A DNA stretch of 64,000 nt from a virus. Each line of letters opens with the position of its first letter. Position 1 is the first letter of the stretch. Below the pieces are notes generated by a model. It was not told where the DNA came from. It saw only the letters and a list, made by a program, of their open reading frames with translations, and ran no database searches. This document shows positions 1-62,010 of this stretch, one piece after another. The DNA lies in the IMG/VR virus record IMGVR_UViG_3300044952_000182, positions 1,578-65,577 of that record. One strand, given 5' to 3'. A program made the translations under genes and the position numbers.

Positions 1-1475
1 TCTTTTACAAAGAAGTCTACATCAAACATCATTCCATTGGTTTGAATTCCTTTTCCTTGAGATGTATTAACTATACCTAAATAAGCTTTCTTGTCTGTAT
101 TAAAGGATTCATTAATAACACCTAAGTCTTTCTCATTTACAACTACATCATATGTGTTATAGAATGCACGTTTGTATCCTAGATCTTGAGCAGCTTTGAA
201 TCCATTATATAAGTTAGTAAGTACAGTGAGAGACTGATTACTATATTTCAATCCATTGATATTCACCTCAGCATAATAGTCATCTGTATGTCTATAGAAT
301 CTGCTGTAATAAGAATGATGTGTTAATGGATTATGTGCATCGTACACATAGTGATCCACCATACGTTGTATCTCCTCGTCCACAGGATAGTGACTGATTA
401 ACATGATGTTTCTACCTAAGGCTTTCATAGAGTTGATAGTATCCTTAGTTAATTGTGCACGAGATTTTAAATTAGGATAGGTGCCTATGATGATAAGTTC
501 TTCATCTTTCTTATCAAGGTTTAATTTTTTGATGATATTAGTAGCATCACTACCAATATCTCCAGTTAAATAAACCATATTCTCTGCATCATTATACTTG
601 TTACAATATACATCTAGGTTGTACATTACTTTGATCAAGTCATCATATTCCATAGCTTCTTTAATAGCAATAGGATTTAACTCCTTGTTACCTCTGTCTC
701 CTTTAGATGGGAAGAAGAATACATCAGAAGCTTCTAAGAACATGTCTACATCATCTCGCTCACCCCACACAACACAGTTGTCTGGTTTGTTAGCCATCAA
801 GGGCTTCCAATATGATTCAAAGTTACCAGCTTGGTTACCTAGGAAATGAAACTTAACCTTGTAGTTCTTAAGTCTTTCTGCTAGTTGGAATGCATAAGCT
901 TGATTCTTTCTAGGTGTAAACAACCCTACAGTTACAAAGTGTTTATAGTCATGCTCTAATCCTAACTTTTCTCTTATAGCATACTGGTTTCTTTCTTTCT
1001 TGTTTACAGGATACTCAATCACTTCTGTAGGTACATTTAATGTAATGTATTGAAATGAATTATATGAGCTAACAAATATAAACTTGTCAGGCAAATAGTA
1101 TTTGTTTTTAGGATTGAATGAACTATCATGTGTAGTTTCTACAATCTTCCATGGCTTCTCTGCATCGTATAGATAGTCAGCACATTCTTCATTCATAAAC
1201 ATCTCTGGAAACTCTTCCATAGAGATTACATCTGGTTTGAACTCTTGCAGAACTTGCAACAGTTCATCATATTTATTCTCTCCTAGTGAATGGAAGTTCT
1301 GATCTCCCACTAGTTTAATTATTCTATTTCTTTGCACAACAAACTGCCATGCTAGGAATGCATACTCTACCACCTTGATATCAAAGTCATTCTGTAGTAG
1401 TTCTACTTTGTTTACTGTTACCTGGGGTGCTCCTCCTGTTGATAGATGAGGAGTGATGATTAATAGTTTCTTCAT
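1..1475 (-). CDS. glycosyltransferase, GT-B fold (GT4/GT1-like); C-terminus beyond window edge
   Basis: Minus-strand frame is open from ATG at 1475-1473 to the window edge, so it is absent from the ORF track. N-terminus MKKLLIITPHLSTGGAPQV matches the Gly-rich N-terminal motif of GT-B glycosyltransferases. ATGA start/stop overlap with the upstream GT9 gene. Confidence 0.5.
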   Translation of the reverse strand, partial: MKKLLIITPHLSTGGAPQVTVNKVELLQNDFDIKVVEYAFLAWQFVVQRNRIIKLVGDQNFHSLGENKYDELLQVLQEFKPDVISMEEFPEMFMNEECADYLYDAEKPWKIVETTHDSSFNPKNKYYLPDKFIFVSSYNSFQYITLNVPTEVIEYPVNKKERNQYAIREKLGLEHDYKHFVTVGLFTPRKNQAYAFQLAERLKNYKVKFHFLGNQAGNFESYWKPLMANKPDNCVVWGERDDVDMFLEASDVFFFPSKGDRGNKELNPIAIKEAMEYDDLIKVMYNLDVYCNKYNDAENMVYLTGDIGSDATNIIKKLNLDKKDEELIIIGTYPNLKSRAQLTKDTINSMKALGRNIMLISHYPVDEEIQRMVDHYVYDAHNPLTHHSYYSRFYRHTDDYYAEVNINGLKYSNQSLTVLTNLYNGFKAAQDLGYKRAFYNTYDVVVNEKDLGVINESFNTDKKAYLGIVNTSQGKGIQTNGMMFDVDFFVK

Positions 1476-2401
1476 ATGTTATTGTTAATTGCGTGAATCA
1501 CCTGCTCTACAGATGGATGACACTCATAAGCTTCTTTCTTCTCTAAGCATCCAATCAGTGGCTGTACAGAGTCTATTGTAGGCCAATACTCAAGAGCATA
1601 TTTCATATTGGATGAACAGTGTAATCCACATGCTCCTCTTACGTATATATGTTTGCTAGTCTTTCTACGTGGTCTACGAAACTCTGGGTTGATAGGAGAT
1701 CCTAATTCAATTATAGGTGTTTCTGTTGTACCTGCTAAATGTAGGATACCTGAGTCCATTGTAATTACAACTGCAGCATCGTTAATCAGATGCCAGCTCT
1801 CAGAGATAGATGTTTGATTCATTAGATTGATAACATTTTGATTATCAATATCATGTACAGGTTTGTTTACATTAAAGAATCCTGTCTCAGAACTATCCTT
1901 ACCTATAGCCACCACTTTGTATCCCCACTTCACTAACTCTTCAGATAGCTTTAGCCAGTTCTCTTGTGACCATGTTCTATTAGGCCAGCTGTTAACAGGA
2001 TGTATTACAGCATACTTCTCATGTACAAAGTTCTTCTTAGGTTCTGTAGGTTTGTAATAACATTCTAGTTCATCTTCTCCAAGCATAAAGCCTAGGTGTA
2101 TGGCATGAAACTGTCTGATGTCCATCATGTTATGCTTCATCTCCACACCACGCTCGTCCTTCTTACCTACTAGATAGAATGAATTATGTACAATGTAATT
2201 ACTTTGTATGTACGTCATGTCTATAGAACTAGCTTTATAGCTCTTCTCTACATAGGGATTCGTTTTAAATAGCTCAGGCATCTGAGAGATGACAGTAATC
2301 TTTCTTTGATATGCATCATGTAGTTTCTTAATGGTGGGGGTGGCACATATCAGGTCTCCCAAACCATTACATTCTTCTAAGTTTAAGCAAACTGGTTTCA
2401 T
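1472..2401 (-). CDS. glycosyltransferase family 9 (heptosyltransferase-like)
   Basis: N-terminal LEECNGLGDLICATP matches the GT9 motif (lGDvvlttP). C-terminal VVITMDSGILHLAGTTETPIIELGSP matches the GT9 signature (DSGpmHLAaA...lfGpt). Confidence 0.75.
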   Translation of the reverse strand: MKPVCLNLEECNGLGDLICATPTIKKLHDAYQRKITVISQMPELFKTNPYVEKSYKASSIDMTYIQSNYIVHNSFYLVGKKDERGVEMKHNMMDIRQFHAIHLGFMLGEDELECYYKPTEPKKNFVHEKYAVIHPVNSWPNRTWSQENWLKLSEELVKWGYKVVAIGKDSSETGFFNVNKPVHDIDNQNVINLMNQTSISESWHLINDAAVVITMDSGILHLAGTTETPIIELGSPINPEFRRPRRKTSKHIYVRGACGLHCSSNMKYALEYWPTIDSVQPLIGCLEKKEAYECHPSVEQVIHAINNNI

Positions 2402-3042
2402 TGTATTGACATTAAAAAATCAGGAGTTGTATAGTCTCTTTTAACTGTTGTATATCCTAGTCTAGCTAAGAAATTTACAGCTGTACTTGTATTGTCCTCT
2501 AACCATATTAGAGGCTTATCTCTTTGTATTAATTTTATCATTCCTTCAAAAGCAGACATCTCATGACCCTCAATATCTATCTTGATAAACTTAACAGGCT
2601 CATCAAACCATACATCATCTAGAGCTAAGACAATGTTCTTATGTGCTCCATTAGGTACAATCTTTACCACACCACTGTTGGAACCATGTCCATCATCAAA
2701 TGAAACAATAGATGTTCTACTACCCACTCCTACATTTATTGCAGATACATCCTTGTATCTTTTTGTGTTTTGCTTTAGAACAGAATAGTTATCTGGATGT
2801 GGTTCAAATGCTATAATCTTTAAGTTAGGGAAGTGGTGTTTAAATTGTACACAATGTCCTCCTATATTAGCCCCAATATCTAACATTAGTCCTGTAGAAG
2901 GGAAATGTTCTTTCCAATCATTAAATAACTGAAATTCCCAGAAATCATTGTATTTAACTATGTCATCTGAGATACATTCAGGACTCTCAAATATAACCAT
3001 AGGTGTATTGTGAATACTTACTATCCTAGTTTCTCGTTTCAT
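2398..3042 (-). CDS. FkbM-family SAM-dependent methyltransferase
   Basis: LDIGANIGGHCVQF ... IIAFEPHPDNYSVLKQN fit the FkbM domain motifs (DiGAniG ... fEP.p..f..L..N). Confidence 0.7.
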   Translation of the reverse strand: MKRETRIVSIHNTPMVIFESPECISDDIVKYNDFWEFQLFNDWKEHFPSTGLMLDIGANIGGHCVQFKHHFPNLKIIAFEPHPDNYSVLKQNTKRYKDVSAINVGVGSRTSIVSFDDGHGSNSGVVKIVPNGAHKNIVLALDDVWFDEPVKFIKIDIEGHEMSAFEGMIKLIQRDKPLIWLEDNTSTAVNFLARLGYTTVKRDYTTPDFLMSIQ

Positions 3043-4706: not shown

Positions 4707-5312
4707 ATGAACGTTGATAAATTAAAAGGGCACATTCCTGATGGGGTGATTGCTCAAATCCCTAGTGTAGTAGATAAGTTTGAGATCAATACACCTTTAC
4801 GTTTAGCCCATTTTCTAGCACAAACAGGACATGAATCTGGCGGATTCAAAGCTGTTACAGAAAACTTAAACTATGGAGCTGCAGGTCTTTCAAGTATCTT
4901 TAAGAAATACTTTACACCTGAAAGTGCTAAAGAGTATGAACGCAAACCTGAAAAAATAGCAAATATAGTATATGCAAACAGAATGGGGAATGGTAACCAG
5001 GCTTCTGGTGAAGGTTATAAATTTCGTGGAAGGGGTTTTATCCAACTAACAGGAAAGGATAACTACGCTGCTTTTGACAAGACAGTTGATGATGATATCA
5101 TAGCTAACCCAGATCTTGTAGCTACAAAGTACCCACTTTTATCTGCAGCTTGGTTCTTCCATAAGAATGGATTACACAAGATTGCTGACGAGGGGGCTAC
5201 AGATGCAGTGGTAACCAAGGTAACCAAGCGTGTTAATGGTGGAACAATTGGTCTACCAGATCGTATTAAACACTTTAATGAATACAATAATCTTTTAAAT
5301 GGTAGTATATAA
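4707..5312 (+). CDS. endolysin, glycoside hydrolase family 19 (chitinase-like lysozyme)
   Basis: LAHFLAQTGHESGGF ... YKFRGRGFIQLTGKDNY match the GH19 catalytic-core motifs (lAaFlAQ.gHESggf ... RGRGpiQLTg..NY). Confidence 0.85.
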   Translation: MNVDKLKGHIPDGVIAQIPSVVDKFEINTPLRLAHFLAQTGHESGGFKAVTENLNYGAAGLSSIFKKYFTPESAKEYERKPEKIANIVYANRMGNGNQASGEGYKFRGRGFIQLTGKDNYAAFDKTVDDDIIANPDLVATKYPLLSAAWFFHKNGLHKIADEGATDAVVTKVTKRVNGGTIGLPDRIKHFNEYNNLLNGSI

Positions 5313-6254: not shown

Positions 6255-6377
6255 ATGGCAAAAGCAGTAGGTAACTCAAGAAAAATCTCCTTTGGAAAAC
6301 GTAAAAGAGGCAAAGCTTCTAAGTTTAAAGGTCCTAAGGACAAGGCTACTAAGCCTTACAACAGGCAGGGTAAGTAA
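6255..6377 (+). CDS. small lysine-rich basic protein (40 aa)
   Basis: MAKAVGNSRKISFGKRKRGKASKFKGPKDKATKPYNRQGK; below the track's size cutoff; composition resembles the K-rich family at 9.8-11.7 kb. Confidence 0.35.
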   Translation: MAKAVGNSRKISFGKRKRGKASKFKGPKDKATKPYNRQGK

Positions 6378-6400
6378 TAACTAAAAAAGTTAAAACACAT

Positions 6401-6466
6401 ATAACTAAAATTGTTATTGTAAATTATTGACACTCATTGTTAATATTAAAAAGTAACATATCTTTG
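6401..6466 (+). promoter_or_regulatory. promoter region with conserved 20-nt motif ATAACTAAAATTGTTATTGT and a TATCTTTG -7 box
   Basis: TTG at 6437-6439 and TATCTTTG at 6459-6466, 19 nt before ATG 6486. The 20-mer at 6401-6420 recurs at 46671-46690. Confidence 0.4.
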
Positions 6467-6485
6467 AACATTAATTTTTTATATC

Positions 6486-6656
6486 ATGGCAATACCATCA
6501 AGACAGATAGGTTGGAGTACAACAGATAACTTGCTTTGGCAGATATCTAAGCAATTAGAATATTTGACACAAGTAACAGCTAATTGTTGTCCTACAACAA
6601 CTACCACAACTACAGTAGCACCAACAACTACTACTACGACTACACCTGCTCCTTAA
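6486..6656 (+). CDS. small CC-polyThr protein (shortest member of the mucin-like paralog family)
   Basis: MAIPSRQIGWSTTDNLLWQISKQLEYLTQVTANCCPTTTTTTTVAPTTTTTTTPAP. Shares the CC-(NY-V)-P-Thr-run and the terminal TPAP with ORFs 7702..7989 and 8002..8808. Confidence 0.4.
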   Translation: MAIPSRQIGWSTTDNLLWQISKQLEYLTQVTANCCPTTTTTTTVAPTTTTTTTPAP

Positions 6657-6681
6657 TAAAGAGAAACCAACAAACTACATA

Positions 6682-7699
6682 TATGAAGGATCTTAAATTT
6701 ATCTGTGCACAGCCAGATGATGTATACTACACATGGCAGGTACATCTATGGTTGGAAAGTTTAAAGAAGCTTGGGCACTCAGACAAAGCAATTGTTTTAG
6801 TGTACACACCTAGTTTCAGAGAATATAATGGTAAATGGGAGAAGATAATGGAGCTGTATCCAGAAGCACAATTTGCTTTCTACAAGGATACAGGAGATGT
6901 TAGTCAGTATTTAGGAGTATATATTCCTATTCTACGTCCTTATTGCTTAATGAGATATTTCCAGGACAATCCTGAGATGGTATCCAAAGCAGTTTTTTAT
7001 TGTGATTGTGATGTAATCTTCACAGAAAAGTTTGATATAGATAAATTTAAAGATGATGATATAAACTACTTGTCTGATACAAACAGTTATATCAACGCTT
7101 CATATTTTGATAGTAAAGACAGAGATGTTCTACCAGACAAACTGGAAGAGTATAAGACTAGAGATGTCTTAGCTGAGCTTACAAGCTTAGTGGGTATAAC
7201 AAGAGAGATAGCTGAAGCTAACAATGATCATTCAGGAGGAGCTCAATACTTCCTTAAAAATATAGACAGTGAGTTTTGGAAGAAGGTGATGAATGACTGT
7301 ATATTAATACGTGTCTACCTTCAGAATATAAACAAACAGTTCTTCAAAAATGAAGACAAAGGGTTCCAAAGCTGGTGTGCAGATATGTGGGCTGTGCTAT
7401 GGAACGTTTGGCTTAGAGAGAAAGAAACAAAGAACATTCCTGAATTGGAATTCTGTTGGTCTTCAGATCCTATAGAGAAGCTAGATAGAACAACATTGTT
7501 ACATAATGCAGGGATTACAGGACAGAACACAATGGGTTATCCTGCCTTTTATAAAGGAGCATATCACGCTGGTAAAGATCCTTTTAAAGATACACAACTA
7601 TATGTAGTACGCACTGATGAGAAGTCTAAGAAATATGCAACTCATTACTATGTAAAACAACTATTAGAAATAAAAAACAAATATAATATAAATTATTAA
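6682..7699 (+). CDS. hypothetical protein (possible GT-A-like nucleotide-sugar transferase, DCD motif)
   Basis: Track ORF 6584..7699 trimmed to ATG 6682 (MKDLKFICAQPDD), because the upstream part overlaps the small ORF 6486..6656. Contains YCDCDVIF (DxD-like). No firm family assignment. Confidence 0.45.
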
Positions 7700-7701
7700 T
7701 T

Positions 7702-7989
7702 ATGGCCCAGAATACTAATCGCCCTCTCAAAGCTTATGTACGCTTTGATGGTACTGGAAGAATCGTTCCAAGCAGCCTAATCTTAAGAAGAAAGAAACCC
7801 AAGGTTGGTAAGTGGGTAGAGATCCCAGCTTATGAATGTTGCAATTACGTTCCTACAACAACTACTACAACCAGTAGTACAAGCACTAGCACAACTACTA
7901 GTACATCTACTAGCACAAGTACAAGTACAACAACAACTACTACGACTGCTACTCCAACAACAACAACAACAACAACTCCTGCACCTTAA
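7702..7989 (+). CDS. Thr/Ser-rich mucin-like protein (conserved N-domain + poly-Thr/(ST)n tail)
   Basis: N-terminus NRPLKAYVRFDGTGRIV...ECCNYVPTTTTTTSSTSTS is a paralog of the N-terminus of 8002..8808; ends ...TTTTTTPAP. Confidence 0.55.
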   Translation: MAQNTNRPLKAYVRFDGTGRIVPSSLILRRKKPKVGKWVEIPAYECCNYVPTTTTTTSSTSTSTTTSTSTSTSTSTTTTTTTATPTTTTTTTPAP

Positions 7990-8001
7990 AATTAAATAAA
8001 C

Positions 8002-8808
8002 ATGGCAAATAGCAACAATAGATTAAAAGCATATGTACGTTACGATGGTACAGGACGTGTCATAGCAGGTAGCTTGATCTTACAAAGATTCAAACCACAA
8101 GTGGGTAATTGGGTGGAGATAGATGCAAATGAGTGTTGTAATTATGTTCCAACAACCACTACAACTACGTCTTCTACTAGTACTAGTACAAGCACTTCTA
8201 CAAGCACTTCTACAAGTACTACAACAAGTACATCTACTTCTACAAGTACAAGCACTTCTACAAGTACAACAACAACAACAACAACAGCTGCACCAGCAGA
8301 ATGTCCTGAAGATTATACAATTGGTCAAGCTGCATTAGGTGGTAAAATTGCATACATCCTACAATCAGGTGACCCAGGATATGATTCAAATTTACAACAA
8401 GGATTAGTAGCTACAATAGCAGATATTTCAACAGGAGCAGCATGGGGATGTTTTGGAACAGCAATTGCAGGAGCAGATGGTACAGCTATTGGTACTGGTA
8501 ATCAAAATACTATAGATATTATGGCTGGTTGTGCTACAGCAGGTATTGCAGCTAGACTTTGTGGTGATTTAGTTCAGGGAGGATATTCTGATTGGTATTT
8601 ACCTAGTCAAGATGAATTAAATAAATTATACCTAAATAGAGTAGCTATTGGTGGTTTTACGAATAACGGCTATTGGAGTTCTACGGAGTACGCCACCATC
8701 TTCGCGTGGGACCAGAATTTCCTCACTGGCAGTCAGGACGGCAGCGATAAGACCTTCCCAAACTATGTTCGCGCCATTAGGGCTTTTGCATGTACAATTC
8801 CTAGATAA
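8002..8808 (+). CDS. mucin-like linker protein with C-terminal DUF1566 (Lcl C-terminal / Fib_succ_major-type) domain
   Basis: Same N-domain as 7702..7989, then a long T/(ST)n linker. C-terminal GGYSDWYLPSQDELNKLYLN...GYWSSTEY...YVRAIRAF matches the DUF1566 signature (DWRLPt.dEL..L ... yWSSt ... vRcVR). Confidence 0.65.
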   Translation: MANSNNRLKAYVRYDGTGRVIAGSLILQRFKPQVGNWVEIDANECCNYVPTTTTTTSSTSTSTSTSTSTSTSTTTSTSTSTSTSTSTSTTTTTTTAAPAECPEDYTIGQAALGGKIAYILQSGDPGYDSNLQQGLVATIADISTGAAWGCFGTAIAGADGTAIGTGNQNTIDIMAGCATAGIAARLCGDLVQGGYSDWYLPSQDELNKLYLNRVAIGGFTNNGYWSSTEYATIFAWDQNFLTGSQDGSDKTFPNYVRAIRAFACTIPR

Positions 8809-9558: not shown

Positions 9559-9831
9559 ATGGCAGAGATTATCAATTTCGAAGACGTTGCTAACCAAGCA
9601 TCTCAAGGTCCTAAGTTTGATCCAAAAAAGAAGTACACATGGTCTCCAGAGACAGTGTTTACAATTAATGGTCATGAATTTGGACTGTTATTGAACACAT
9701 TACGTTCTATTACAAGCACAAAGGAAGCACAGACTATTATCCTAGCACATGAAGCTGGTGATGCTCTTGAAAAGACATTATCAAGTGCAGTTGAAACAGG
9801 TATAGTGGTTGAACTTCCAGAAAACAAATAA
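9559..9831 (+). CDS. hypothetical protein
   Basis: MAEIINFEDV...; compact operon context. Confidence 0.45.
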   Translation: MAEIINFEDVANQASQGPKFDPKKKYTWSPETVFTINGHEFGLLLNTLRSITSTKEAQTIILAHEAGDALEKTLSSAVETGIVVELPENK

Positions 9832-9835
9832 GATT

Positions 9836-10201
9836 ATGGCAACAATTAAAAAAGCTCAATCTGGTATTACAAAAAGAGGAATGGCAGGTATGAAAAAACT
9901 TCCTTCTCTTAATCCTAAAATGGTTCCAGGTGAAATGACTGGTAAAATGTACAAGAAGTCTGAACTTGATGAGATTGGTAGAAAACAAGCTGCAGAATTA
10001 GATAAAGTTTCTATGCTTGGTAAAGCTGCTATGGCTAAGAAGAAGGCTCCTAAAGCTAAGAATGGTATGTTAAAGCGTGCTGATGGTTCATATTCTAAAA
10101 GAGGATTATGGGATAATATCAGGAATGCTAAAGGATCTGGAAAGAAGCCTACAGCTGCCATGTTAAAACAAGAGAAGAAAATTAAAGCTAAAACAAAATA
10201 A
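9836..10201 (+). CDS. lysine-rich basic protein, paralog family member 1
   Basis: Track ORF 9809 trimmed to MATIKKAQSG at 9836. Extremely K/A/G-rich. Shares KKAQ(S/D)G and KAKNG motifs with 11164..11532. Confidence 0.55.
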   Translation: MATIKKAQSGITKRGMAGMKKLPSLNPKMVPGEMTGKMYKKSELDEIGRKQAAELDKVSMLGKAAMAKKKAPKAKNGMLKRADGSYSKRGLWDNIRNAKGSGKKPTAAMLKQEKKIKAKTK

Positions 10202-10203
10202 TA

Positions 10204-10548
10204 ATGGCAAAGATTAAAAAATCTGGTATGGGTAGCATGTCAGGCTTAGATGCTTCTGATAAGCGTGTAGGTCCTATTGACCCACAAGGTGCTTGGACTA
10301 AAGTTCAAGAGGCTACTTTAGCAGGTGCTAGAATGAAAGCTACTTTAAAGAGAGATAAAGAACTAGGTGCTACTAAGATGGCAAAGAATGGACGTTCTGA
10401 AATGCAATTTGGTCTTAACAAGAAACAAAAAGCATCAAAAGAAGTTAATCCAGCAGGTTTTAGAAAAGCAGCATTAAAGCGTGAATCTGAACTAGTTGAG
10501 AAGCGTAGTGGTGAAATGGCTCCTAAGTTGAAATCTAAAAAGAAGTAA
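10204..10548 (+). CDS. lysine-rich basic protein, paralog family member 2
   Basis: MAKIKKSGMG...; K-rich low-complexity small protein; 2-nt gap to the previous gene. Confidence 0.55.
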   Translation: MAKIKKSGMGSMSGLDASDKRVGPIDPQGAWTKVQEATLAGARMKATLKRDKELGATKMAKNGRSEMQFGLNKKQKASKEVNPAGFRKAALKRESELVEKRSGEMAPKLKSKKK

Positions 10549-10551
10549 GAT

Positions 10552-10704: not shown

Positions 10705-10705
10705 T

Positions 10706-11848: not shown

Positions 11849-11882
11849 AAAAAAGCCTCCCTTAAAAAAGGAGGCTTTTTTT
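11849..11882. terminator. bidirectional rho-independent terminator
   Basis: AAAAAGCCTCC-cttaaaaaa-GGAGGC-TTTTTTT: a 6-bp GC stem with an A-run upstream and a T-run downstream. Lies between the convergent plus-strand K-rich operon and the minus-strand gene 11881..12417. Confidence 0.6.
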
Positions 11883-12417
11883 ATGATACTAATGAATTGT
11901 ATACAGATAGTATCTTGTTTATGTAATGTTTATTCTTTGCTTTTTTATAACAGTTCTCAGCAAATACACCATCAGCATCTCTCCTTGATAGAACAAATCT
12001 TTCTTGATTCACTATAGATGTATGTACAATGAAGTTATGGCTATCTACATAGCTTAACTTAATTATGTTTCCATACAATCTATGTACACCACTGTTCCAC
12101 AGTTGATCAAATGATATAAAATCATTGTTTAAGTCTTTGATATTGTCCCACAACTCTGGATGCATAGTTGTATCATCATCGTTGAAATATATCCAACCCT
12201 CTGTTACTAGATTAATTGCTAGGTTTCTTTGTGCATTTCCACATACGCTTTTTACATCCTTTATACAATAAGCTTCACATTCAGGAATATCAGTTGGAAT
12301 AGTCTCTGAATCAAACACAACAATCCATCTGTAATTTTCTTTAGGTATGTTAATGCTTTCTGCAATTCTATGTAAAAAATGAGGTCTACTACAAGGAGTG
12401 ATAATATTTAAGAACAT
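11881..12417 (-). CDS. glycosyltransferase-like protein (GT-A-type, DDD motif)
   Basis: MFLNIITPCSRPHFL...WIYFNDDDTTMHPELW resembles the N-terminal beta strand and DxD region of GT-A fold transferases. Confidence 0.4.
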   Translation of the reverse strand: MFLNIITPCSRPHFLHRIAESINIPKENYRWIVVFDSETIPTDIPECEAYCIKDVKSVCGNAQRNLAINLVTEGWIYFNDDDTTMHPELWDNIKDLNNDFISFDQLWNSGVHRLYGNIIKLSYVDSHNFIVHTSIVNQERFVLSRRDADGVFAENCYKKAKNKHYINKILSVYNSLVS

Positions 12418-13061
12418 GGTTTGTCATTTCTATGTAAAACTAAAAGCTTATCATTGTCCCAACCTGGAGAAAACTTTAACTCATGATTAGCCATAATAAA
12501 TGTAGCAGATGAGAAGTATTCTTTAATGTGATCCATGGCTTCCATGTATCTGTTTTCATCTTCTCTAAGGAAGATATCTTCGATGATGATTATACCTCCT
12601 GGCTTAACACATTTGTATGCTATGTTTAAAAATCTAATCTGATCTTCAAACACGTGTGTAGAATCTTCTATGATTATGTCAAAGAAGTTATTTTTGTTGA
12701 ACACATTGTTAAGAGACTGTTCACTGGTAACATCTACATGAGTGTATGTAGCATTGTTAAGATTATCACGTATTCCTTTTTGCAACTTATCATCATGATA
12801 TTCATAACCAAACAATGTTGCATTAGGGAAGTACTCTCTCCAACATAACATAGAATGATTATCTAATATACCCACTTCACCTATTGTAATCTCTTTGTAA
12901 CGAAGATTTGAAAACAATAAGTTATATATGGAAGTGTAAGCATGTCTATGTAAATGAGGATGGTTATGATAAGGACACTTGTCTGTAGGATACTTAACAG
13001 CAAGTTTACACAAGTCTGTATTAGAATGTGTAGAGTCAATACTTAGTCTATTTATTTGCAT
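12408..13061 (-). CDS. class I SAM-dependent methyltransferase
   Basis: ITIGEVGILDNHSM (motif I-like) ... CVKPGGIIIIEDI (post-II); Rossmann-fold methyltransferase pattern. Confidence 0.65.
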   Translation of the reverse strand: MQINRLSIDSTHSNTDLCKLAVKYPTDKCPYHNHPHLHRHAYTSIYNLLFSNLRYKEITIGEVGILDNHSMLCWREYFPNATLFGYEYHDDKLQKGIRDNLNNATYTHVDVTSEQSLNNVFNKNNFFDIIIEDSTHVFEDQIRFLNIAYKCVKPGGIIIIEDIFLREDENRYMEAMDHIKEYFSSATFIMANHELKFSPGWDNDKLLVLHRNDKPCS

Positions 13062-13803
13062 TGATAAAATCTTTTAACAATTCTGAATAATCTTTATCCC
13101 AATGAGGATTTAGTTTAACTTCTCCTGTAGGAATCTTTCCTAAACGTCTTTCAGATTCAATGTGAGCACTGTGTCTTTGTATAGCATTGAGTTTTTTAGG
13201 ATGGTCTGTACCTTCTCCACTCATGTGGTATCCTCTTCCTCCCCACATGTAAAACCAGCTAGCTTCTTCTTTAGGTGGAGTAGCAAATAGTCTACCTCCA
13301 TGTTTATGTAGTCTTTCAATGAAAGTCATATCATATCCAGCATTTTCAAGAGGATGTCCCCCTATTGCTTTCCAAGCTGCTTTTCTAAACACAAGACCAG
13401 AATTACCTATCCAACCAACTTGCTCAATACCTGTAATGTGACACAACACACCTATTTGCCAATGAAGTATGTTAACTTCTTCTGTCATGTATTTAGCTAC
13501 ATTCTTTAAATGGTGTGGTAGAGCTACGTCATCATCGTCCCATTGACATATAATATCTCCTTGACACAGTTCTGTAGCAAAGTTTTCTTTCTCTCCTATG
13601 GTCTCAAAGGTCTTAACTAGGTTAACTATCTTAACTTGAGGATGCTCAAATATAAGAGTTTGTAAGGCATAGTCATTTACTATGATAAGTTCGCACTTAT
13701 CTGCAGGGTAGTCCTGCTTGAGGAAAGACTCAATGCTCTCCTCAAGCGTACTAACCCTTCCATAAGTTATACACTTACATGATATAAATGGATGTGAGTT
13801 CAT
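13048..13803 (-). CDS. glycosyltransferase family 2
   Basis: ISCKCITYGRVSTLEESIESFLKQDYP..CELIIVNDYA and the QWDDDDV DxD-type motif are typical of GT2. Confidence 0.7.
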   Translation of the reverse strand: MNSHPFISCKCITYGRVSTLEESIESFLKQDYPADKCELIIVNDYALQTLIFEHPQVKIVNLVKTFETIGEKENFATELCQGDIICQWDDDDVALPHHLKNVAKYMTEEVNILHWQIGVLCHITGIEQVGWIGNSGLVFRKAAWKAIGGHPLENAGYDMTFIERLHKHGGRLFATPPKEEASWFYMWGGRGYHMSGEGTDHPKKLNAIQRHSAHIESERRLGKIPTGEVKLNPHWDKDYSELLKDFINANK

Positions 13804-19695: not shown

Positions 19696-19716
19696 GTTAA
19701 TTTGTGTTTTATTAGT

Positions 19717-19745
19717 TAAAAAATGAAGGGCTGCAAATCTACTGC
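19717..19745 (-). terminator. rho-independent terminator (minus strand)
   Basis: Minus-strand hairpin GGGTTGCAGTAGATTTGCAGCCC followed by a T-run, between gene 19780..20031 and the nrdJ start. Confidence 0.4.
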
Positions 19746-19779
19746 AACCCTTCTAATAAACCAAGAGAATTTGAAAATT

Positions 19780-58618: not shown

Positions 58619-59779
58619 ATGGCTGATTTTTCCCTAACCACGCTCTTTGTTGTACCAGTAGGAAACACATTACCTAGCTCTGGATCAACACAAGACTTAA
58701 CAGCAGGTCAAGTAGGAATATTCCTAAATGACTATAGTGTTGCCACAGCTGGTAACATTGCTGCTGCCCCTTATTTTTATGTAGCTCAAGGTAGAGTTAA
58801 CACCTACTTACAAGGTTCTAAGCGTTCAGACAAAATCTCTGGATGTCCTGGTGGATCTTCTTGTAAGACAAACGTAACTGAATGGTACAAGTCTAATGGC
58901 TGTGCTACTGTTGTAAACCAAGTAACTGATGTAGTTGATTTCACTGTAAAATGTGGTGAAATTGTTACATTAACTTTACGTGGTTTCTCTAGCTACTTAA
59001 ACACATTGTACTTCAATGGTTTCACTCGTAGTGTAACTGTTAATGCACCTTGTTGTGATTGTGGTGGAGATCCTTGTACAGATACTGATGTTCCTGCTTT
59101 GATTGATTCATTAATCATCAAGTTAGAGGAGCATGCACCTGGTGATAACCCAGACAACATTTATTTGACTCAGTTCTATCAGTTCCAAAGAATTGGTAAC
59201 GATTCATCTGCGTTGTTACGTATCACTGGTAAACCTTTGACTGCTTATGGACAACCTTGTGACGTTGCTGCATTCCCTTGGGAGTATGACAGATTCTACT
59301 TTAGAACTTTCATCTTCTCTGGTCCAGCTACAACTGCTGACTTTATTGTTGACGATCCTTGTAACAGAGTTGCTCAACCTGTAATCACTCAACGTTCTAA
59401 CTATCCTGCTGGTACTTCTGCTGAGGTTCAACAATTAGAAAAGAACTTCTATAGCTACCAAGCTGGTTACTTAAAGCATTTATACAGAATGAATGGTTAC
59501 AACGAGAACTTTGAGTCTTGGGTAACTGATGGTACAATCTATGATTTGTATTACATCAAATTCAATGAGTATGACAAGAGTGCTTACCAATGGGGTGATT
59601 ACATCATGGAAGATTCAACTGTAATCATTGCTGTTCCTAACAACCAAACAACTGCTATCGAAGCTATCTTAGAAGCTGGTTTAGGAACTGTTGCAGGTGA
59701 CACAGCTTGTCTTACTACTACTAGTACTACAACTACTGTATGGCCTAGCACTTCAACAACAACTACTTTGATCCCTTAA
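58619..59779 (+). CDS. virion structural protein with C-terminal poly-Thr tail
   Basis: 386-aa ORF with Cys-rich patches, ending …CLTTTSTTTTVWPSTSTTTTLIP. Confidence 0.5.
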   Translation: MADFSLTTLFVVPVGNTLPSSGSTQDLTAGQVGIFLNDYSVATAGNIAAAPYFYVAQGRVNTYLQGSKRSDKISGCPGGSSCKTNVTEWYKSNGCATVVNQVTDVVDFTVKCGEIVTLTLRGFSSYLNTLYFNGFTRSVTVNAPCCDCGGDPCTDTDVPALIDSLIIKLEEHAPGDNPDNIYLTQFYQFQRIGNDSSALLRITGKPLTAYGQPCDVAAFPWEYDRFYFRTFIFSGPATTADFIVDDPCNRVAQPVITQRSNYPAGTSAEVQQLEKNFYSYQAGYLKHLYRMNGYNENFESWVTDGTIYDLYYIKFNEYDKSAYQWGDYIMEDSTVIIAVPNNQTTAIEAILEAGLGTVAGDTACLTTTSTTTTVWPSTSTTTTLIP

Positions 59780-60816: not shown

Positions 60817-62010
60817 ATGCCAGAAGATACCACTACTACTAGCACTACAAGTACAACTTCTACCATTACAACAACAAGACCTTGTGATGCCTGTTATAAT
60901 GGATGTGTACAAATTGTATCTGATCAATGTGTTAGATATACAGGTCTTGACAGCATCCCTTTAGATATAACATATGGAGATAACCTTCAGCTTGTATTAG
61001 ATAATATAATTAATAACTTAGTCCCTCTCTTAACTGGAGAAGGAGATAAGATTCTTATATTAGAAAGTATACGTTGTGCAATTATAAATGGTTATTTACC
61101 TACTCCAAGTGAAGCAGATACTTGGACATCTGCACAGTTGTTTAATGCTTTAGTACAAGTAGTTTGTGATTTACAAGCTCAGATTGATGCAATTGATGCT
61201 GAAATAACTATACTAAATGCTGACTATGATATTGATTGTTTGACTGGTGTAACAACTAGCTCAGATACGCATGCTATTGTCCAAGCTATTATAACAAGGC
61301 TATGTGATACTATAGCTGATCTTGCTGCTCTTGAACTTGATGTAGCTACAAACTATGTTAAACTATCAGATCTTGATGCTTTGATTGCAGCTTATTTAGC
61401 TAGTCAAGCAGGAAGTGGAAGCATACAACAATATTTAAAAATGGTTCCATTTGTAGCATATGAATATTATGGACCATTGAGTAACTTTGATGGATCAGGT
61501 GTTGGTTTTCCAAGTCTTGGTTTCTATAAGGTGTATCTATGTAATGGTCTTAATGCCACTCCTGATAAAAGAGGACGTGTTGCTGTTGGAGCTATTGATA
61601 ATGTTCCTCCTATTAATATTGGCCTTGATGCTTCTGTAAATCCTGCTTTTGTTGGAAATCCAAACTATGCATTATTCACCACAGCAGGTGCAAATAGTGT
61701 AACACTTATTACATCACAATTGCCTTCTCACTCACACACTGCAGTAGGAACAACAAATGTTACATTAAATGATCCTGGTCACTTCCATTTTGGTGGAAAA
61801 ACAAATGATTTTGGTGGAGCAAGTGGAAGTATAGGTTTATCTAAAAACCTTCCTCAAAATTATGCAACAACAACTAGTACAACTGGAATAACAGTTACTT
61901 CTAATACTCCTGGTAACGTATCTATTGGAATTGACAATACAGGTAGTGGACAAGCTCACGCAAACATCCAACCTGTTATTGCTGCGTATTATATAATGTA
62001 TATTCCTTAA
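60817..62010 (+). CDS. tail fibre/receptor-binding protein candidate with N-terminal poly-Thr segment
   Basis: Begins MPEDTTTTSTTSTTSTITTTRPCDACYNGC; Cys-rich N-terminal region; Gly/Asn/Thr-rich, beta-like C-terminal half typical of fibre tips. Confidence 0.45.
   Translation: MPEDTTTTSTTSTTSTITTTRPCDACYNGCVQIVSDQCVRYTGLDSIPLDITYGDNLQLVLDNIINNLVPLLTGEGDKILILESIRCAIINGYLPTPSEADTWTSAQLFNALVQVVCDLQAQIDAIDAEITILNADYDIDCLTGVTTSSDTHAIVQAIITRLCDTIADLAALELDVATNYVKLSDLDALIAAYLASQAGSGSIQQYLKMVPFVAYEYYGPLSNFDGSGVGFPSLGFYKVYLCNGLNATPDKRGRVAVGAIDNVPPINIGLDASVNPAFVGNPNYALFTTAGANSVTLITSQLPSHSHTAVGTTNVTLNDPGHFHFGGKTNDFGGASGSIGLSKNLPQNYATTTSTTGITVTSNTPGNVSIGIDNTGSGQAHANIQPVIAAYYIMYIP

What the first reader, a model, noticed from the sequence alone, without database searches (positions are those of the whole stretch)
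6486..8808. Paralogous family of CC-polyThr mucin-like proteins, one fused to a DUF1566 domain
Three ORFs share the C-C-(N-Y-V)-P-Thr-run architecture: 6486..6656, 7702..7989 and 8002..8808. The two shorter ones end in the same TTTTTTTPAP tail.

7702 and 8002 also share a ~45-aa N-terminal domain (…LKAYVR(F/Y)DGTGR…WVEI.A.ECCNYVP). Their DNA is diverged (~70% identity), so this is not a DGR-like template/variable pair.

The longest member carries a C-terminal DUF1566/Fib_succ_major-type domain (DWYLPSQDEL…YWSSTEY…VRAIRAF). That domain family is linked to Legionella collagen-like adhesin and to Bacteroidota surface proteins.

The family looks like a set of alternative or decorating adhesins with O-glycosylatable linkers. 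A RiPP-precursor interpretation (conserved leader plus Cys/Thr-rich core) was considered. It is not supported by any modification enzyme in the window.
Basis: seen in the sequence. Interest (0 to 1): 0.6.

Follow-up and report, generated by a model that had tools for sequence, protein, structure and literature searches.

The report
Phage poly-threonine proteins flanking a glycosyltransferase
Three small phage genes encoding proteins with long threonine runs surround a previously unnamed sugar-adding enzyme, and comparison with other phages suggests the enzyme sugar-coats such threonine tails, pointing to a widespread but unstudied way for phages to glycosylate their own proteins.

Summary
ORFs 6486-6656, 7702-7989 and 8002-8808 carry all seven Thr runs of six or more residues in the window (0.005 expected). 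They are under purifying selection, and the longest carries an Lcl_C/DUF1566 domain.

The interpretation needs two corrections.

- **Two families, not one.** 6486 has an unrelated N-terminal module ("A"). 7702 and 8002 share module "B".
- **A modification enzyme is present.** It is a confident GT-A glycosyltransferase with an invariant DxD motif and an invariant His. The order A gene, GT, B gene(s) is kept in all eight related contigs.

In nine of nine isolate phages with this GT, poly-Thr tracts sit on capsid, tail-tube, portal or small proteins, mostly as C-terminal tails. Hosts include Enterococcus, Lactococcus, Lactobacillus, Staphylococcus, Clostridium, Arcanobacterium and Chryseobacterium. 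Four GT-lacking relatives with homologous capsid and tail genes have none. Distant bacterial homologues lie in lanthipeptide-type peptide clusters.

Best reading: the Thr tracts are O-glycosylation acceptors of the adjacent enzyme. The proteins are modular, with an N-terminal adaptor, a glycosylated stalk and an optional binding domain. They are probably virion adhesins or decorations. Glycosylation and virion location are inferred, not shown. This is a new variant of phage protein glycosylation.

The parts
6378..6485 (+). AT-rich intergenic region upstream of the cassette. It contains TATCTTTG (6459-6466), a match to the Bacteroidota -7 promoter consensus TAnnTTTG, 20 nt before the ATG. Possible promoter.
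   Evidence: Sequence. The motif search found 110 sites in the window against 84 +/- 8.6 expected, a weak enrichment. This is a consensus match only.
6486..6656 (+). A-type poly-Thr protein, 56 aa. N-terminal module MAIPSRQIGW..LLWQISKQLEYLTQV (about residues 1-31), a variable linker (TANCCP), then T7-VAP-T7-PAP.
   Evidence: 587 homologues were found, with a conserved N-module and variable tails. dN/dS is 0.09-0.35 against relatives.
6683..7699 (+). 338-aa GT-A-fold glycosyltransferase (PHROG 4417, annotated 'unknown function', no Pfam or NCBIfam hit). The proposed enzyme that O-glycosylates the poly-Thr tracts. DxD at D108-C-D110; invariant H274.
   Evidence: PHROG match E 6.4e-56. AF2 pLDDT 93.6, pTM 0.91. 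Foldseek PDB top hits are glycogenin, UGGT, LARGE1, GTA/GTB and GlyE, E 3e-6 to 5e-5. BFVD hits are giant-virus and phage GT8-type enzymes. Invariant residues hold across phage and bacterial members.
7702..7989 (+). B-type poly-Thr protein, 95 aa. B module (residues 1-51, nt 7702-7854, ..LKAYVRFDGTGR..KPKVGKWVEI..ECCNYVP), then a 41-residue Thr/Ser tract (7855-7977), then PAP. No C-terminal domain (stalk-only form).
   Evidence: The family has 1680 hits. dN/dS is about 0.1.
8002..8808 (+). B-type modular protein, 268 aa. B module (8002-8151), a 45-residue Thr/Ser tract (8152-8286), a Cys-containing linker, then an Lcl_C/DUF1566 domain (residues 138-260, nt 8413-8781).
   Evidence: Pfam, NCBIfam adhesin_Lcl partial match, PDB 8q4e. 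The B module is predicted as a small beta domain with pLDDT 91-93; the rest is low confidence.
1..3042 (-). Other glycosylation genes that may extend or methylate the glycan: a GT4-type gene (open from the window edge to 1475), GT9 (1472-2401) and an FkbM-type methyltransferase (2398-3042).
   Evidence: Pfam hits. The same genes sit upstream in related contigs. Any link to the poly-Thr proteins is inferred from proximity only.
11881..13803 (-). A second group of sugar-modifying genes: a weak GT2-like gene (11881-12417), a methyltransferase (12408-13061) and GT2 (13048-13803).
   Evidence: Pfam and PHROG hits.
58619..59779 (+). 386-aa protein in the structural module, three genes after the crAss-type major capsid gene. 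It ends in a Thr-rich tail (..CLTTTSTTTTVWPSTSTTTTLIP). Candidate further acceptor.
   Evidence: No family, PHROG or PDB match, so its role in the virion is unknown.
60817..62010 (+). 397-aa tail-fibre-like protein with an N-terminal Thr-rich segment (MPEDTTTTSTTSTTSTITTT..). Candidate further acceptor.
   Evidence: PHROG tail protein and tail fibre hits, E 1.6e-19 and 2.4e-15.

Best explanation
The three ORFs and the gene between them form a protein O-glycosylation cassette of an uncultivated freshwater phage. The phage has a crAss-type capsid, and its host is probably a member of the Bacteroidota, perhaps Chitinophagaceae.

The 338-aa GT-A enzyme (6683-7699) would bind a nucleotide sugar through its DxD/His metal site. 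It would transfer sugar onto the hydroxyls of the disordered Thr (and Ser) runs in the host cytoplasm. The other glycosyltransferases and methyltransferases nearby may extend and methylate the glycan.

The acceptor proteins are modular:
- a small conserved N-terminal adaptor (module A or B);
- a Thr tract built of blocks of about seven Thr separated by x-x-Pro spacers, which becomes an extended, protease-resistant, mucin-like stalk once glycosylated;
- either nothing more (6486, 7702) or a carbohydrate- or surface-binding head (Lcl_C in 8002).

The adaptor most likely docks the protein on the virion or oligomerises it. The family would then act as exchangeable adhesins or decoration fibres plus a glycan brush.

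**Shown:** gene order and its conservation; the GT-A fold and motifs; purifying selection; the modular architecture; and the co-occurrence of this enzyme family with poly-Thr tracts.

**Inferred:** the glycosylation itself, the sugar, the roles of the other enzymes, virion attachment and the binding function.
For: 1. **The middle gene is a glycosyltransferase.**
   - The AF2 model is confident (pLDDT 93.6).
   - Its top solved-structure matches are protein- or glycoprotein-modifying GT-A enzymes: glycogenin, UGGT, LARGE1, XXYLT1, and GlyE of the serine-rich-repeat pathway.
   - DxD and a downstream His are invariant in 38 close and 14 distant members.

2. **Synteny.** The order A-type gene(s), GT, B-type gene(s), DUF5856 is kept in the window and in L002, L005, L006, L007, L017, L018, L019 and L026, while the A and B genes themselves vary.

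3. **Co-occurrence across phyla.**
   - The GT family has exactly 77 members in the phage collection, and two divergent queries recover the same 77.
   - All nine sampled GT-positive phages have poly-Thr tracts, mostly C-terminal tails, on capsid, tail-tube, portal, protease or small flanking proteins. The GT gene usually sits right after the tail-tube or capsid gene. The nine are phiFL1A, R3.3, FA88, PMBT8, TPWB06, MA9V-3, bIL285, 1706 and Bacchae.
   - Four GT-negative phages with homologous capsid and tail-tube genes have none: Streptococcus phiGBSVK-C, SPP1, and Lactobacillus Bassarid and ATCC8014. Bassarid and ATCC8014 were checked across their full genomes and belong to the same genus as R3.3; for phiGBSVK-C and SPP1, only the ~18-kb structural region was scanned for tracts and GT absence rests on the 77-record host list.
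   - My calculation: 9/9 against 0/4 gives a Fisher exact p of about 0.0014.

4. **A matching cassette elsewhere.** Lactobacillus myophage Bacchae has small T-x-x-P-repeat proteins on both sides of its GT.

5. **Bacterial homologues act on peptides.** Homologues at 28-35% identity lie in lanthipeptide-type clusters next to ribosomal precursor peptides. One precursor has a T13 tail. The family therefore appears to act on polypeptides encoded beside it.

6. **The ORFs are real proteins.** dN/dS is 0.04-0.38 with saturated synonymous sites. There are 587 and 1680 homologues.

7. **Module B heads surface-type binding domains.**
   - It is always N-terminal in 917 clusters at 50% identity.
   - In 111 of the 150 best hits a Thr/Ser run is present, usually beginning at residue 47-54, immediately after the B domain.
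   - Known C-terminal domains are LRR, Lcl_C, Fib_succ_major, DUF285, Ice_binding-like, PKD, a PQQ propeller and Peptidase_S74, a tail-fibre chaperone.
   - Module A likewise heads Laminin_G_3 and Fib_succ_major proteins.

8. **Precedent.** Mycobacteriophages glycosylate the capsid and tail-tube C-termini with their own glycosyltransferases (Freeman 2023, as cited in PMC12619734, PMC12363180 and PMC11600133).
Against: - No biochemical data exist. Glycosylation, the sugar and the site are all inferred.
- The enzyme has no Pfam, NCBIfam or PDB sequence match, and structural TM-scores to known enzymes are moderate (0.4-0.57).
- In 11 of 13 distant bacterial loci there is no poly-Thr ORF within 6 kb. 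Family membership alone therefore does not imply a poly-Thr acceptor.
- The three genes lie beside the lysis genes, about 40 kb from the structural module, and the major capsid protein has no Thr tail. Virion association is therefore unproven.
- The B module has no recognisable structural relative, and one B-headed protein in relatives resembles an enzyme (LCIB_C_CA) and lacks a Thr tract.
- The sampled phages were chosen by hand, and n is small.
Confidence: 0.6

Rival explanations
1. RiPP-like glycopeptides. The short forms (6486, 7702) are precursor-like peptides whose conserved N-terminal part is a recognition handle for the adjacent glycosyltransferase. Their Cys/Thr-rich tail is the modified product, released at lysis as a free glycopeptide (toxin, signal or decoy) rather than built into virions.
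For: - Small size, a conserved N-terminus, a hypervariable C-terminus and an adjacent tailoring enzyme.
- Homologues of the GT are fused to a second GT domain in Bacteroidota clusters. Those clusters have a C39-ABC exporter, HlyD, LanB and LanC-like genes, a radical SAM enzyme and tandem double-glycine-leader precursors.
- The Sphingobacterium detergens precursor ends in KCD-T13-KAPAVIL.
- Cys45 and Cys46 are nearly invariant in module B.
- Lysis would remove the need for an exporter.
Against: - There is no double-glycine or other cleavage motif in A or B.
- No protease, exporter, dehydratase or cyclase was found among the gene products scanned here: positions 1-15.5 kb and 53.9-62 kb. The rest of the window was not scanned.
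- Module B is a confidently folded beta domain that also heads proteins of 120-600 aa with LRR, lectin-like, propeller and tail-fibre chaperone domains. That is not leader-like behaviour.
- The single-domain phage branch of the GT is tied to tails of folded capsid and tail-tube proteins.
- The CC motif is not conserved in family A.
Confidence: 0.12
2. The Thr tracts are plain flexible linkers that are not modified. The glycosyltransferase acts on something else, such as phage DNA, host lipopolysaccharide or capsule, or a cell-wall polymer, and its position among these genes is incidental.
For: - Phage glycosyltransferases commonly modify DNA or host surface polysaccharide (reviewed in PMC12619734).
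- GT9 is a heptosyltransferase-type family that acts on LPS cores.
- Thr/Pro-rich linkers exist without glycosylation in many bacterial proteins (established knowledge).
- Most distant bacterial homologues have no poly-Thr gene nearby.
Against: - The 9/9 against 0/4 presence/absence pattern includes same-genus pairs. There the capsid and tail-tube C-termini differ essentially by the appended Thr tail.
- The A-GT-B order is conserved in all related contigs.
- The GT lies inside the head-tail gene block of siphophages.
- C-terminal tails of pure Thr link nothing to anything, so a linker role does not explain them.
Confidence: 0.15
3. Glycosylated but non-structural proteins. The A and B proteins are modified as proposed but act as soluble factors inside the infected cell or after lysis. 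Examples would be lectin-like decoys that bind host polysaccharide or vesicles, or primers on which a polysaccharide is built as on glycogenin. They would not be virion components.
For: - The genes sit next to lysis genes and away from the structural module.
- The top structural match of the GT is the self-priming enzyme glycogenin.
- A B-headed enzyme-like protein occurs in relatives.
Against: - A conserved N-terminal adaptor with swapped C-terminal binding heads is the classic layout of phage fibres and receptor-binding proteins (established knowledge). One B-headed protein carries the tail-fibre chaperone domain Peptidase_S74.
- In the other GT-positive phages most acceptors are virion proteins.
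Confidence: 0.13

Closest known systems
Mycobacteriophage virion O-glycosylation (Che8, Corndog, Myrna; Freeman et al. 2023, Cell Host Microbe; not held here, cited through PMC12619734, PMC12363180 and PMC11600133)
   Same: Phage-encoded glycosyltransferases, often accompanied by a methyltransferase, modify C-terminal parts of the phage's own capsid and tail-tube proteins in the host cytoplasm.
   Different: - The enzyme family differs. Che8 gp108-110 show no similarity to the window GT (blastp E > 0.1; family HMM E > 0.1), and no Mycobacterium phage is among the 77 family members.
- The acceptor differs. Che8 capsid and tail-tube proteins end in ..NKTGS and ..YSDGS, not in poly-Thr blocks.
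- Here the acceptors adjacent to the GT are dedicated small or modular proteins rather than the capsid protein.
Serine-rich repeat glycoproteins of Gram-positive bacteria (GtfA/B, then GT8 enzymes such as GlyE)
   Same: Long Ser/Thr-rich low-complexity stalks are O-glycosylated in the cytoplasm and present a binding domain. GlyE is among the structural matches of the window GT.
   Different: SRRPs are huge, carry signal peptides, use the accessory Sec system and are cell-wall anchored. None of these features occurs here. The tracts here are Thr7 blocks, not SASESAS-type repeats.
Glycosylated RiPPs and Bacteroidota class I lanthipeptide clusters with double-glycine leaders (Walker et al. 2020, PMC7268733)
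   Same: A small ribosomal peptide with a conserved N-terminus and a Cys/Ser/Thr-rich C-terminus is encoded beside a tailoring enzyme. Bacterial homologues of this GT lie in such clusters.
   Different: The phage cassette has no leader cleavage motif, protease, exporter, dehydratase or cyclase. Its N-terminal modules are domains reused on large proteins. The known glycocin transferases (SunS-type) belong to GT2, not to this family (my knowledge).
Legionella pneumophila Lcl adhesin (collagen-like region plus Lcl C-terminal domain, PF07603)
   Same: The C-terminal domain of ORF 8002 matches Lcl_C above the Pfam threshold. It also matches the NCBIfam adhesin_Lcl model over its last 69 positions. 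In both proteins an extended stalk presents this domain.
   Different: The stalk here is poly-Thr/Ser, not collagen. The whole-protein NCBIfam score is far below its cut-off (45 against 500 bits). There is no signal peptide. A separate collagen-like Gly-Thr-Ser fibre gene exists at 62032 to the window end.
Glycosylated fibrils and capsids of giant viruses (mimivirus, chloroviruses), made with virus-encoded GT8-type and other glycosyltransferases
   Same: Virus-encoded glycosylation machinery, independent of host pathways, decorates surface proteins. Giant-virus GT8-type enzymes are among the structural matches (reviews PMC9614988 and PMC4691112 were listed but not read).
   Different: Those viruses have eukaryotic hosts, different acceptor proteins and mostly N-linked or atypical linkages in chloroviruses (my knowledge).

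Membership tests
GT-A fold, GT8-like metal-dependent glycosyltransferase (gene 6683-7699) | Single Rossmann-like GT-A fold | tested here: met
   AF2 pLDDT 93.6, pTM 0.91. 126 PDB matches at E <= 0.001, all of the top 50 glycosyltransferases, led by glycogenin, UGGT and LARGE1. BFVD shows the same pattern.
GT-A fold, GT8-like metal-dependent glycosyltransferase (gene 6683-7699) | DxD motif after a beta strand, plus a C-terminal His as metal ligands | tested here: met
   D108-C-D110 follows strand 103-106. D108, D110 and H274 are invariant in 38 close homologues and in 14 members from phages of three host phyla and from bacterial clusters. Their role as metal ligands is inferred by analogy.
GT-A fold, GT8-like metal-dependent glycosyltransferase (gene 6683-7699) | Sequence match to a curated GT family model (such as Pfam Glyco_transf_8) | tested here: not met
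   No Pfam, NCBIfam or PDB sequence hit. The only match is PHROG 4417, 'unknown function'. I therefore call it GT8-like in fold, not a GT8 member.
GT-A fold, GT8-like metal-dependent glycosyltransferase (gene 6683-7699) | Sugar transfer from a nucleotide sugar to an acceptor | not testable with these tools
   Needs an enzyme assay.
Lcl_C / DUF1566 domain (ORF 8002, residues 138-260) | Match to PF07603 above the gathering score | tested here: met
   42.7 bits against 34.9, covering profile positions 2-117 of 117. PDB 8q4e matches at E 1.3e-9 over residues 79-146 of the domain query. The AF2 model of this part was low confidence, so the fold was not checked.
Phage virion O-glycosylation system (mycobacteriophage type) | Phage-encoded glycosyltransferase(s) with Ser/Thr-bearing termini on its own structural proteins | tested here: inconclusive
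   The GT and Thr tracts are present. In this window, however, the tracts are on small or modular proteins of unknown location, on a 386-aa protein of the structural module and on a tail-fibre-like protein, not on the major capsid protein. In Gram-positive phages with the same GT, they are on capsid and tail-tube proteins.
Phage virion O-glycosylation system (mycobacteriophage type) | Homology of the enzyme to Che8 gp108-110 or Corndog gp38 | tested here: not met
   No significant blastp or HMM similarity to Che8 gp108-110. Corndog gp38 was not tested directly.
Phage virion O-glycosylation system (mycobacteriophage type) | Glycans detected on virion proteins | not testable with these tools
   Needs mass spectrometry or glycan staining.
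RiPP precursor plus tailoring enzyme | Short precursor with a conserved leader, a variable core and an adjacent modifying enzyme | tested here: met
   Conserved N-terminus, hypervariable tail and an adjacent GT.
RiPP precursor plus tailoring enzyme | Leader cleavage site and a protease or exporter (such as GG with C39-ABC) | tested here: not met
   Neither A nor B has a GG motif at the module-tract junction. No C39, ABC, LanB or LanC gene appears among the Pfam scans of window genes. These genes are present in the bacterial homologue clusters.
Serine-rich repeat glycoprotein (SRRP) | Signal peptide, accessory Sec system, cell-wall anchor | tested here: not met
   The N-termini MAIPSRQIGW.. and MANSNNRLKAY.. 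have no hydrophobic signal segment (sequence). No aSec or sortase motif was seen.

The most novel reading that the evidence does not exclude
PHROG 4417 and its bacterial relatives form an undescribed family of polypeptide Thr-O-glycosyltransferases. Their cognate acceptor would be a portable poly-Thr tag (about seven Thr, then x-x-Pro, repeated).

Phages of at least three host phyla would append this tag to capsid, tail-tube, portal and fibre proteins, or carry it on dedicated stalk-only proteins, to build a glycan coat. Bacteroidota would use the same enzyme family to tailor lanthipeptide-type peptides.

The phage cassette would then be an evolutionary bridge between RiPP tailoring and virion glycosylation. 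The short phage proteins might even be released as free glycopeptides.
Probability: 0.35. Interest if true: 0.8.

Novelty: new variant of a known kind. Interest (0 to 1): 0.66.

Why it matters
Phage self-glycosylation has so far been documented experimentally only for a few mycobacteriophages, where it blunts antibody recognition.

If this reading is right, three things follow.

- **A named function and a marker.** An unannotated protein family present in 77 sequenced phages gains a function and a simple sequence marker, poly-Thr tails. The 77 include dairy phages (Lactococcus 1706 and bIL285, Lactobacillus casei and plantarum phages) and Enterococcus and Staphylococcus phages of the kind considered for therapy.
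- **Direct tests in cultivable systems.** Knocking out one gene and weighing the capsid and tail proteins would test the idea. The result bears on phage immunogenicity, stability, mucus or polysaccharide adherence and host range.
- **Environmental and engineering angles.** An abundant freshwater phage lineage would carry a toolbox of exchangeable glycosylated adhesins. A genetically portable Thr7-x-x-Pro tag plus one enzyme could also serve as a glyco-engineering handle.

The link to lanthipeptide-type clusters additionally suggests unexplored glycosylated peptides in Bacteroidota.

Tried and rejected
- **DNA search against phages** (blastn). Only three short low-complexity matches to Thr-coding tracts of Staphylococcus phages. 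No close isolate exists.
- **tblastn with ORF 8002**. It found only two Pseudomonas phage Lcl_C-like hits. The A and B modules are absent from isolate phages.
- **Pfam, NCBIfam and PDB sequence searches of the GT**. Nothing found, so function had to come from fold.
- **Structure of ORF 8002**. Only the B module folded confidently. Foldseek on that model gave no match better than E 7.6, so the B module stays unassigned and the Lcl_C fold was not verified structurally.
- **The 386-aa Thr-tailed structural-module protein.** No Pfam, PHROG or PDB hit.
- **tRNA scan**. None found, so there is no phage tRNA-Thr to support the tracts.
- **Sigma-70 promoter and terminator scan**. Not above shuffles, so uninformative. 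Only a Bacteroidota-type -7 box upstream of 6486 was noted.
- **Spurious-ORF explanation.** Rejected by dN/dS and by thousands of homologues.
- **DGR or recent duplication.** Rejected. The paralogues differ mostly at synonymous sites, and the identical TTTTTTTPAP tails use different codons. No reverse transcriptase was looked for.
- **Simple slippage as the source of length variation.** Only partly supported. Thr codons are mixed (ACA, ACT, ACC, ACG), and run length is quantised at seven. Variation looks like gain and loss of whole blocks plus (Thr-Ser)n changes.
- **Universality of the GT/poly-Thr link.** Rejected for distant bacterial homologues.
- **Literature.** Ten full-text searches found no report linking this family or poly-Thr tails to phage glycosylation. 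The key paper (Freeman 2023) is not held, so prior description elsewhere cannot be excluded.

Full report
**1. What is there**

The three ORFs exist exactly as described.

- 6486-6656 encodes 56 aa ending ANCCP-T7-VAP-T7-PAP.
- 7702-7989 encodes 95 aa with ECCNYVP followed by 41 Thr/Ser residues and PAP.
- 8002-8808 encodes 268 aa with the same ECCNYVP, 45 Thr/Ser residues, a short Cys-containing linker and a C-terminal domain. That domain matches Pfam Lcl_C (PF07603, formerly DUF1566) above the curated threshold. It also matches the solved chain 8q4e.

All seven runs of six or more Thr in the six-frame translation of the window are in these ORFs. The expectation from 200 triplet shuffles is 0.005.

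The N-terminal 50 residues of 7702 and 8002 are 72% identical in protein. Their synonymous sites are saturated (pS 0.72, pN 0.19, dN/dS about 0.1).

**2. Two families, not one**

HMMs built from homologues separate two unrelated N-terminal modules.

- **Module A:** MAIPSRQIGW..LLWQISKQLE.., found in ORF 6486.
- **Module B:** ..LKAYVRYDGTGR..KPKVGNWVEI..ECC.., found in ORFs 7702 and 8002.

The public protein collection holds 587 A-type and 1680 B-type relatives.

- In both families the module is almost invariant while the tail is hypervariable, from 9 to 41 residues.
- The Cys-Cys motif is nearly invariant in B. In A it is replaced by AHPPA, GRNIPA, AQGNTYP and others, so it does not define a common family.
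- The tails are not random low complexity. Pure-Thr runs have a sharp mode at exactly seven residues: 122 of 227 runs in A and 158 of 339 in B. They are separated by three-residue spacers, mostly ending in Pro, such as VAP, VPP and AAP. I have no explanation for this quantisation.

**3. The missed gene**

Between 6486 and 7702 lies a 338-aa ORF (ATG at 6683, stop at 7699). It has no Pfam, NCBIfam or PDB sequence match and matches only PHROG 4417, "unknown function".

- With an alignment of 38 homologues, AlphaFold2 gives a confident model (pLDDT 93.6, pTM 0.91).
- Foldseek places the model among GT-A glycosyltransferases. The best matches are glycogenin, the catalytic domain of UGGT, LARGE1, the blood-group transferases, XXYLT1 and GlyE of the pneumococcal serine-rich-repeat pathway.
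- Against predicted viral structures it matches GT8-type enzymes of giant viruses and phages.
- D108-x-D110 and H274 are invariant in close homologues. They are also invariant in a 14-member set that spans phages of Bacillota, Actinomycetota and Bacteroidota hosts plus bacterial members.

The window also encodes:

- a GT4-type enzyme (open from the window edge to 1475), GT9 (1472-2401) and an FkbM methyltransferase (2398-3042);
- a GT2 (13048-13803) and a further methyltransferase (12408-13061).

**4. Conserved neighbourhood**

In eight related contigs the order is always A-type gene(s), GT, B-type gene(s), DUF5856. The contigs are L002, L005, L006, L007, L017, L018, L019 and L026, with GT identity of 65-88%. 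The A and B genes themselves are swapped.

- **A-headed proteins** include a 47-aa stalk-only form, a 189-aa form with a beta-rich head, and 422- and 459-aa forms with Laminin_G_3 and Fib_succ_major domains.
- **B-headed proteins** include 60-84-aa stalk-only forms and 130-, 141-, 167-, 245- and 490-aa forms.

An exhaustive profile search finds module B in 917 clusters at 50% identity. It is always at the N-terminus and sometimes duplicated.

- In 111 of the 150 best hits a Thr/Ser run is present, usually beginning at residue 47-54, immediately after the B domain.
- Where the C-terminal part has a known family, it is a surface-binding type: LRR or BspA, Lcl_C, Fib_succ_major, DUF285, Ice_binding-like, PKD, a PQQ propeller, or Peptidase_S74, the tail-fibre chaperone.

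This is the layout of exchangeable phage fibres: a conserved adaptor, a stalk and a variable head. ORF 8002 is one such combination. Most proteins with its exact B module are 80-aa stalk-only forms.

**5. The enzyme and poly-Thr travel together**

The GT family has 77 members in the 50,697-record phage collection, and two divergent queries recover the same 77.

I inspected nine of them. Every one has poly-Thr tracts, and the GT gene usually follows the tail-tube or capsid gene directly.

| Phage | Proteins carrying poly-Thr tracts |
|---|---|
| Enterococcus phiFL1A | capsid ..T5KPT5KPT7QG; tail tube ..T5ST6SST7QASSK |
| Lacticaseibacillus R3.3 | capsid and tail tube |
| Clostridium FA88 | portal, a small head protein and tail tube |
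| Staphylococcus PMBT8 | head protease/scaffold and tail tube |
| Arcanobacterium TPWB06 | the same two, plus an overlapping-frame extension of the tail tube |
| Chryseobacterium MA9V-3 | two proteins just upstream of the GT, internal tracts |
| Lactococcus bIL285 | orf50, the probable tail-tube protein |
| Lactococcus 1706 | capsid/protease fusion, major structural protein and a holin-like protein |
| Lactobacillus myophage Bacchae | three small proteins flanking the GT with T5ST3-VKP and T7-type repeats, the same cassette as in the window |

Four phages that lack the GT but have homologous capsid and tail-tube genes have no such tracts. They are Streptococcus phiGBSVK-C, Bacillus SPP1, and Lactobacillus Bassarid and ATCC8014. 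For Bassarid and ATCC8014 the whole genomes were scanned for both the GT and Thr tracts. For phiGBSVK-C and SPP1 only the ~18-kb structural regions were scanned for tracts. Their GT-negative status rests on the absence of any Streptococcus or Bacillus phage among the 77 family members.

The same-genus contrast is the most telling. R3.3 (GT present) ends its tail tube ..ERPGEKAGEFADGSVTTTTTTSHA. Bassarid (GT absent) ends ..ERPGETEGEFSDAVGSEDAPGSGAA.

By my calculation, 9/9 against 0/4 gives a Fisher exact p of about 0.0014. The sample was hand-picked and is small.

**6. Bacterial relatives**

A scan of one genome per GTDB species with patterns from the window's clade returned 17 Bacteroidota loci.

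- **The four closest (39-65% identity).** They include a 112-kb contig binned with a Sediminibacterium MAG and the Chitinophaga sp. YR573 chromosome. All keep A or B genes beside the GT.
- **The thirteen distant ones (28-35% identity).** Eleven have no poly-Thr ORF within 6 kb.
  - In the loci where I listed ORFs (L030, L031, L035, L039), the GT domain is the N-terminal half of a 537-588-aa protein. In L030 and L035 its C-terminal half matches Glyco_transf_7C.
  - The three loci scanned with Pfam (L030, L031, L035) are lanthipeptide-type clusters. Between them they carry a C39-peptidase ABC exporter, HlyD, LanB-type dehydratase halves, LanC-like proteins and a radical SAM enzyme.
  - Seven loci (L031, L034, L035, L036, L038, L039, L040) carry small precursor-like ORFs with double-glycine leaders and Cys/Ser/Thr-rich cores. 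Tandem sets occur in L035 (six), L034 (three) and L038 (two).
  - This matches the leader type described for Bacteroidetes class I lanthipeptides (PMC7268733).
  - One precursor, from Sphingobacterium detergens, ends KCD-T13-KAPAVIL.

Two conclusions follow. The family as a whole acts on ribosomal polypeptides encoded next to it, which supports the proposed function. And family membership alone does not guarantee a poly-Thr acceptor, which limits the generality of the claim.

**7. Mechanism proposed**

1. The cassette is transcribed from the AT-rich gap at 6378-6485. A Bacteroidota-type -7 box lies 20 nt upstream of the ATG. This is weak evidence.
2. The N-terminal modules fold. The B module is predicted as a small beta domain with pLDDT 91-93. 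The Thr tracts stay disordered.
3. The GT-A enzyme transfers sugar to Thr/Ser hydroxyls in the cytoplasm. The neighbouring GT2, GT4 and GT9 enzymes and the methyltransferases may elaborate the glycan. Cluster O mycobacteriophages likewise pair three glycosyltransferases with an O-methyltransferase (PMC11600133).
4. Dense O-glycosylation makes such tracts extended and protease-resistant (established for mucin domains). The product is a stalk that presents a binding head (Lcl_C in ORF 8002) or, in the short forms, only a glycan brush.

Virion attachment through modules A and B is the weakest step. The genes lie beside the lysis genes: a GH19 endolysin at 4707-5312 and small membrane proteins after it. 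The major capsid protein (55175-56728, a crAss-type fold) has no Thr tail. Two proteins of the structural block do carry Thr-rich ends: 58619-59779 and the tail-fibre-like 60817-62010.

**8. Comparison with what is known**

- **Mycobacteriophage virion glycosylation** is the closest system. It differs in enzyme family and in acceptor. Che8 gp108-110 are not detectably related, and Che8 capsid and tail-tube termini are not poly-Thr.
- **Serine-rich repeat glycoproteins, glycosylated RiPPs, Legionella Lcl and giant-virus fibrils** each share one aspect.
- **Literature.** Ten full-text searches found no paper linking PHROG 4417-type proteins or poly-Thr tails to phage glycosylation. The library lacks most subscription journals, and the Freeman paper itself is not held.

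I rate this a new variant of a known kind.

**9. Verdict**

Mucin-like, O-glycosylatable adhesin proteins: yes. One family of three: no. No enzyme present: no.
- The best-supported explanation is a phage-encoded poly-Thr O-glycosylation cassette with modular acceptor proteins. I put confidence at about 0.6 for the whole statement, higher for the link between the GT and poly-Thr, and lower for virion location.

Noticed in passing
L030 (Chitinophaga niastensis), L031 (Sphingobacterium detergens), L034, L035 (Longitalea arenae), L038, L039, L040: Bacterial homologues of the phage glycosyltransferase form the N-terminal half of 537-588-aa proteins; in L030 and L035 the C-terminal half matches Glyco_transf_7C. 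The three loci scanned with Pfam (L030, L031, L035) are lanthipeptide-type clusters with a C39-ABC exporter, HlyD, LanB or LanC-like genes and a radical SAM enzyme. Tandem precursors with double-glycine leaders are present (six in L035 at 294-1821). One precursor (L031 247-492) ends in a run of 13 Thr. These may be undescribed glycosylated peptides of Bacteroidota.
   Followed up: partly
A and B family tails (P0121-P0360); window 6594-6644, 7957-7977, 8266-8286: Pure-Thr runs are quantised at exactly seven residues, separated by three-residue spacers that mostly end in Pro. A similar T5-9 plus x-x-P pattern occurs in Lactobacillus, Clostridium and Arcanobacterium phages. The cause is unknown.
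   Followed up: partly
window 62032-64000 (+), open to the window end: A protein of at least 656 aa begins MACNPGDPCYNAYY.. and contains hundreds of residues of Gly-Thr-Ser / Gly-Ser-Ser triplets, that is, collagen-like Gly-X-Y repeats rich in Thr and Ser. It is probably a fibre and another possible glycosylation target. The ORFs listed on the opposite strand at 62163-63560 are mirror-frame artefacts of it.
   Followed up: no
window 6255-6377 (+); also 9809-11143 (+): A 40-aa extremely basic protein (MAKAVGNSRKISFGKRKRGKASKFKGPKDKATKPYNRQGK) is conserved in related contigs (L005 5321-5449, L007 5537-5665). It is followed further on by a series of Lys-rich proteins, one with DUF6321. Their function is unknown.
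   Followed up: no
L023 19057-21161 (Lactobacillus phage Bacchae, Herelleviridae): Three small proteins with Thr-repeat tails flank the GT homologue, the same cassette layout as in the window. One of them (19649-19996) consists largely of five T5ST3-VKP repeats and is annotated 'major tail protein', which looks like a mis-annotation.
   Followed up: partly
L012 18921-19184 (Arcanobacterium phage TPWB06): A poly-Thr ORF (T6-VKP-T7-QP-T6SST7-KP-T9) overlaps the 3' end of the major tail protein gene in another frame. This suggests a frameshift-generated Thr-rich extension of the tail tube.
   Followed up: no
L002 9396-10376; L018 7651-8649: A 326-332-aa protein matching Pfam LCIB_C_CA (a carbonic-anhydrase-like family) carries a divergent B module at its N-terminus and has no Thr tract. 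Module B is therefore also used on an enzyme-like cargo. It is absent from this window.
   Followed up: no
window 55175-56728; L026: The major capsid protein matches the crAss-type capsid family (PF23898, E 1.2e-27). No isolate is closer than Leptolyngbya phage Lbo-JY46 (26%) and Flavobacterium FpV4-type phages (22%). A 112-kb relative is binned with a Sediminibacterium MAG, and all GTDB loci with the GT are Bacteroidota. The lineage is an uncultivated freshwater phage group of about 110-118 kb, probably infecting Chitinophagaceae or related Bacteroidota.
   Followed up: partly
L019 5484-5699: A 71-aa protein made of ETTTETTT and T7 repeats, with neither an A nor a B module, sits in the same slot after the GT in a related contig.
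   Followed up: no
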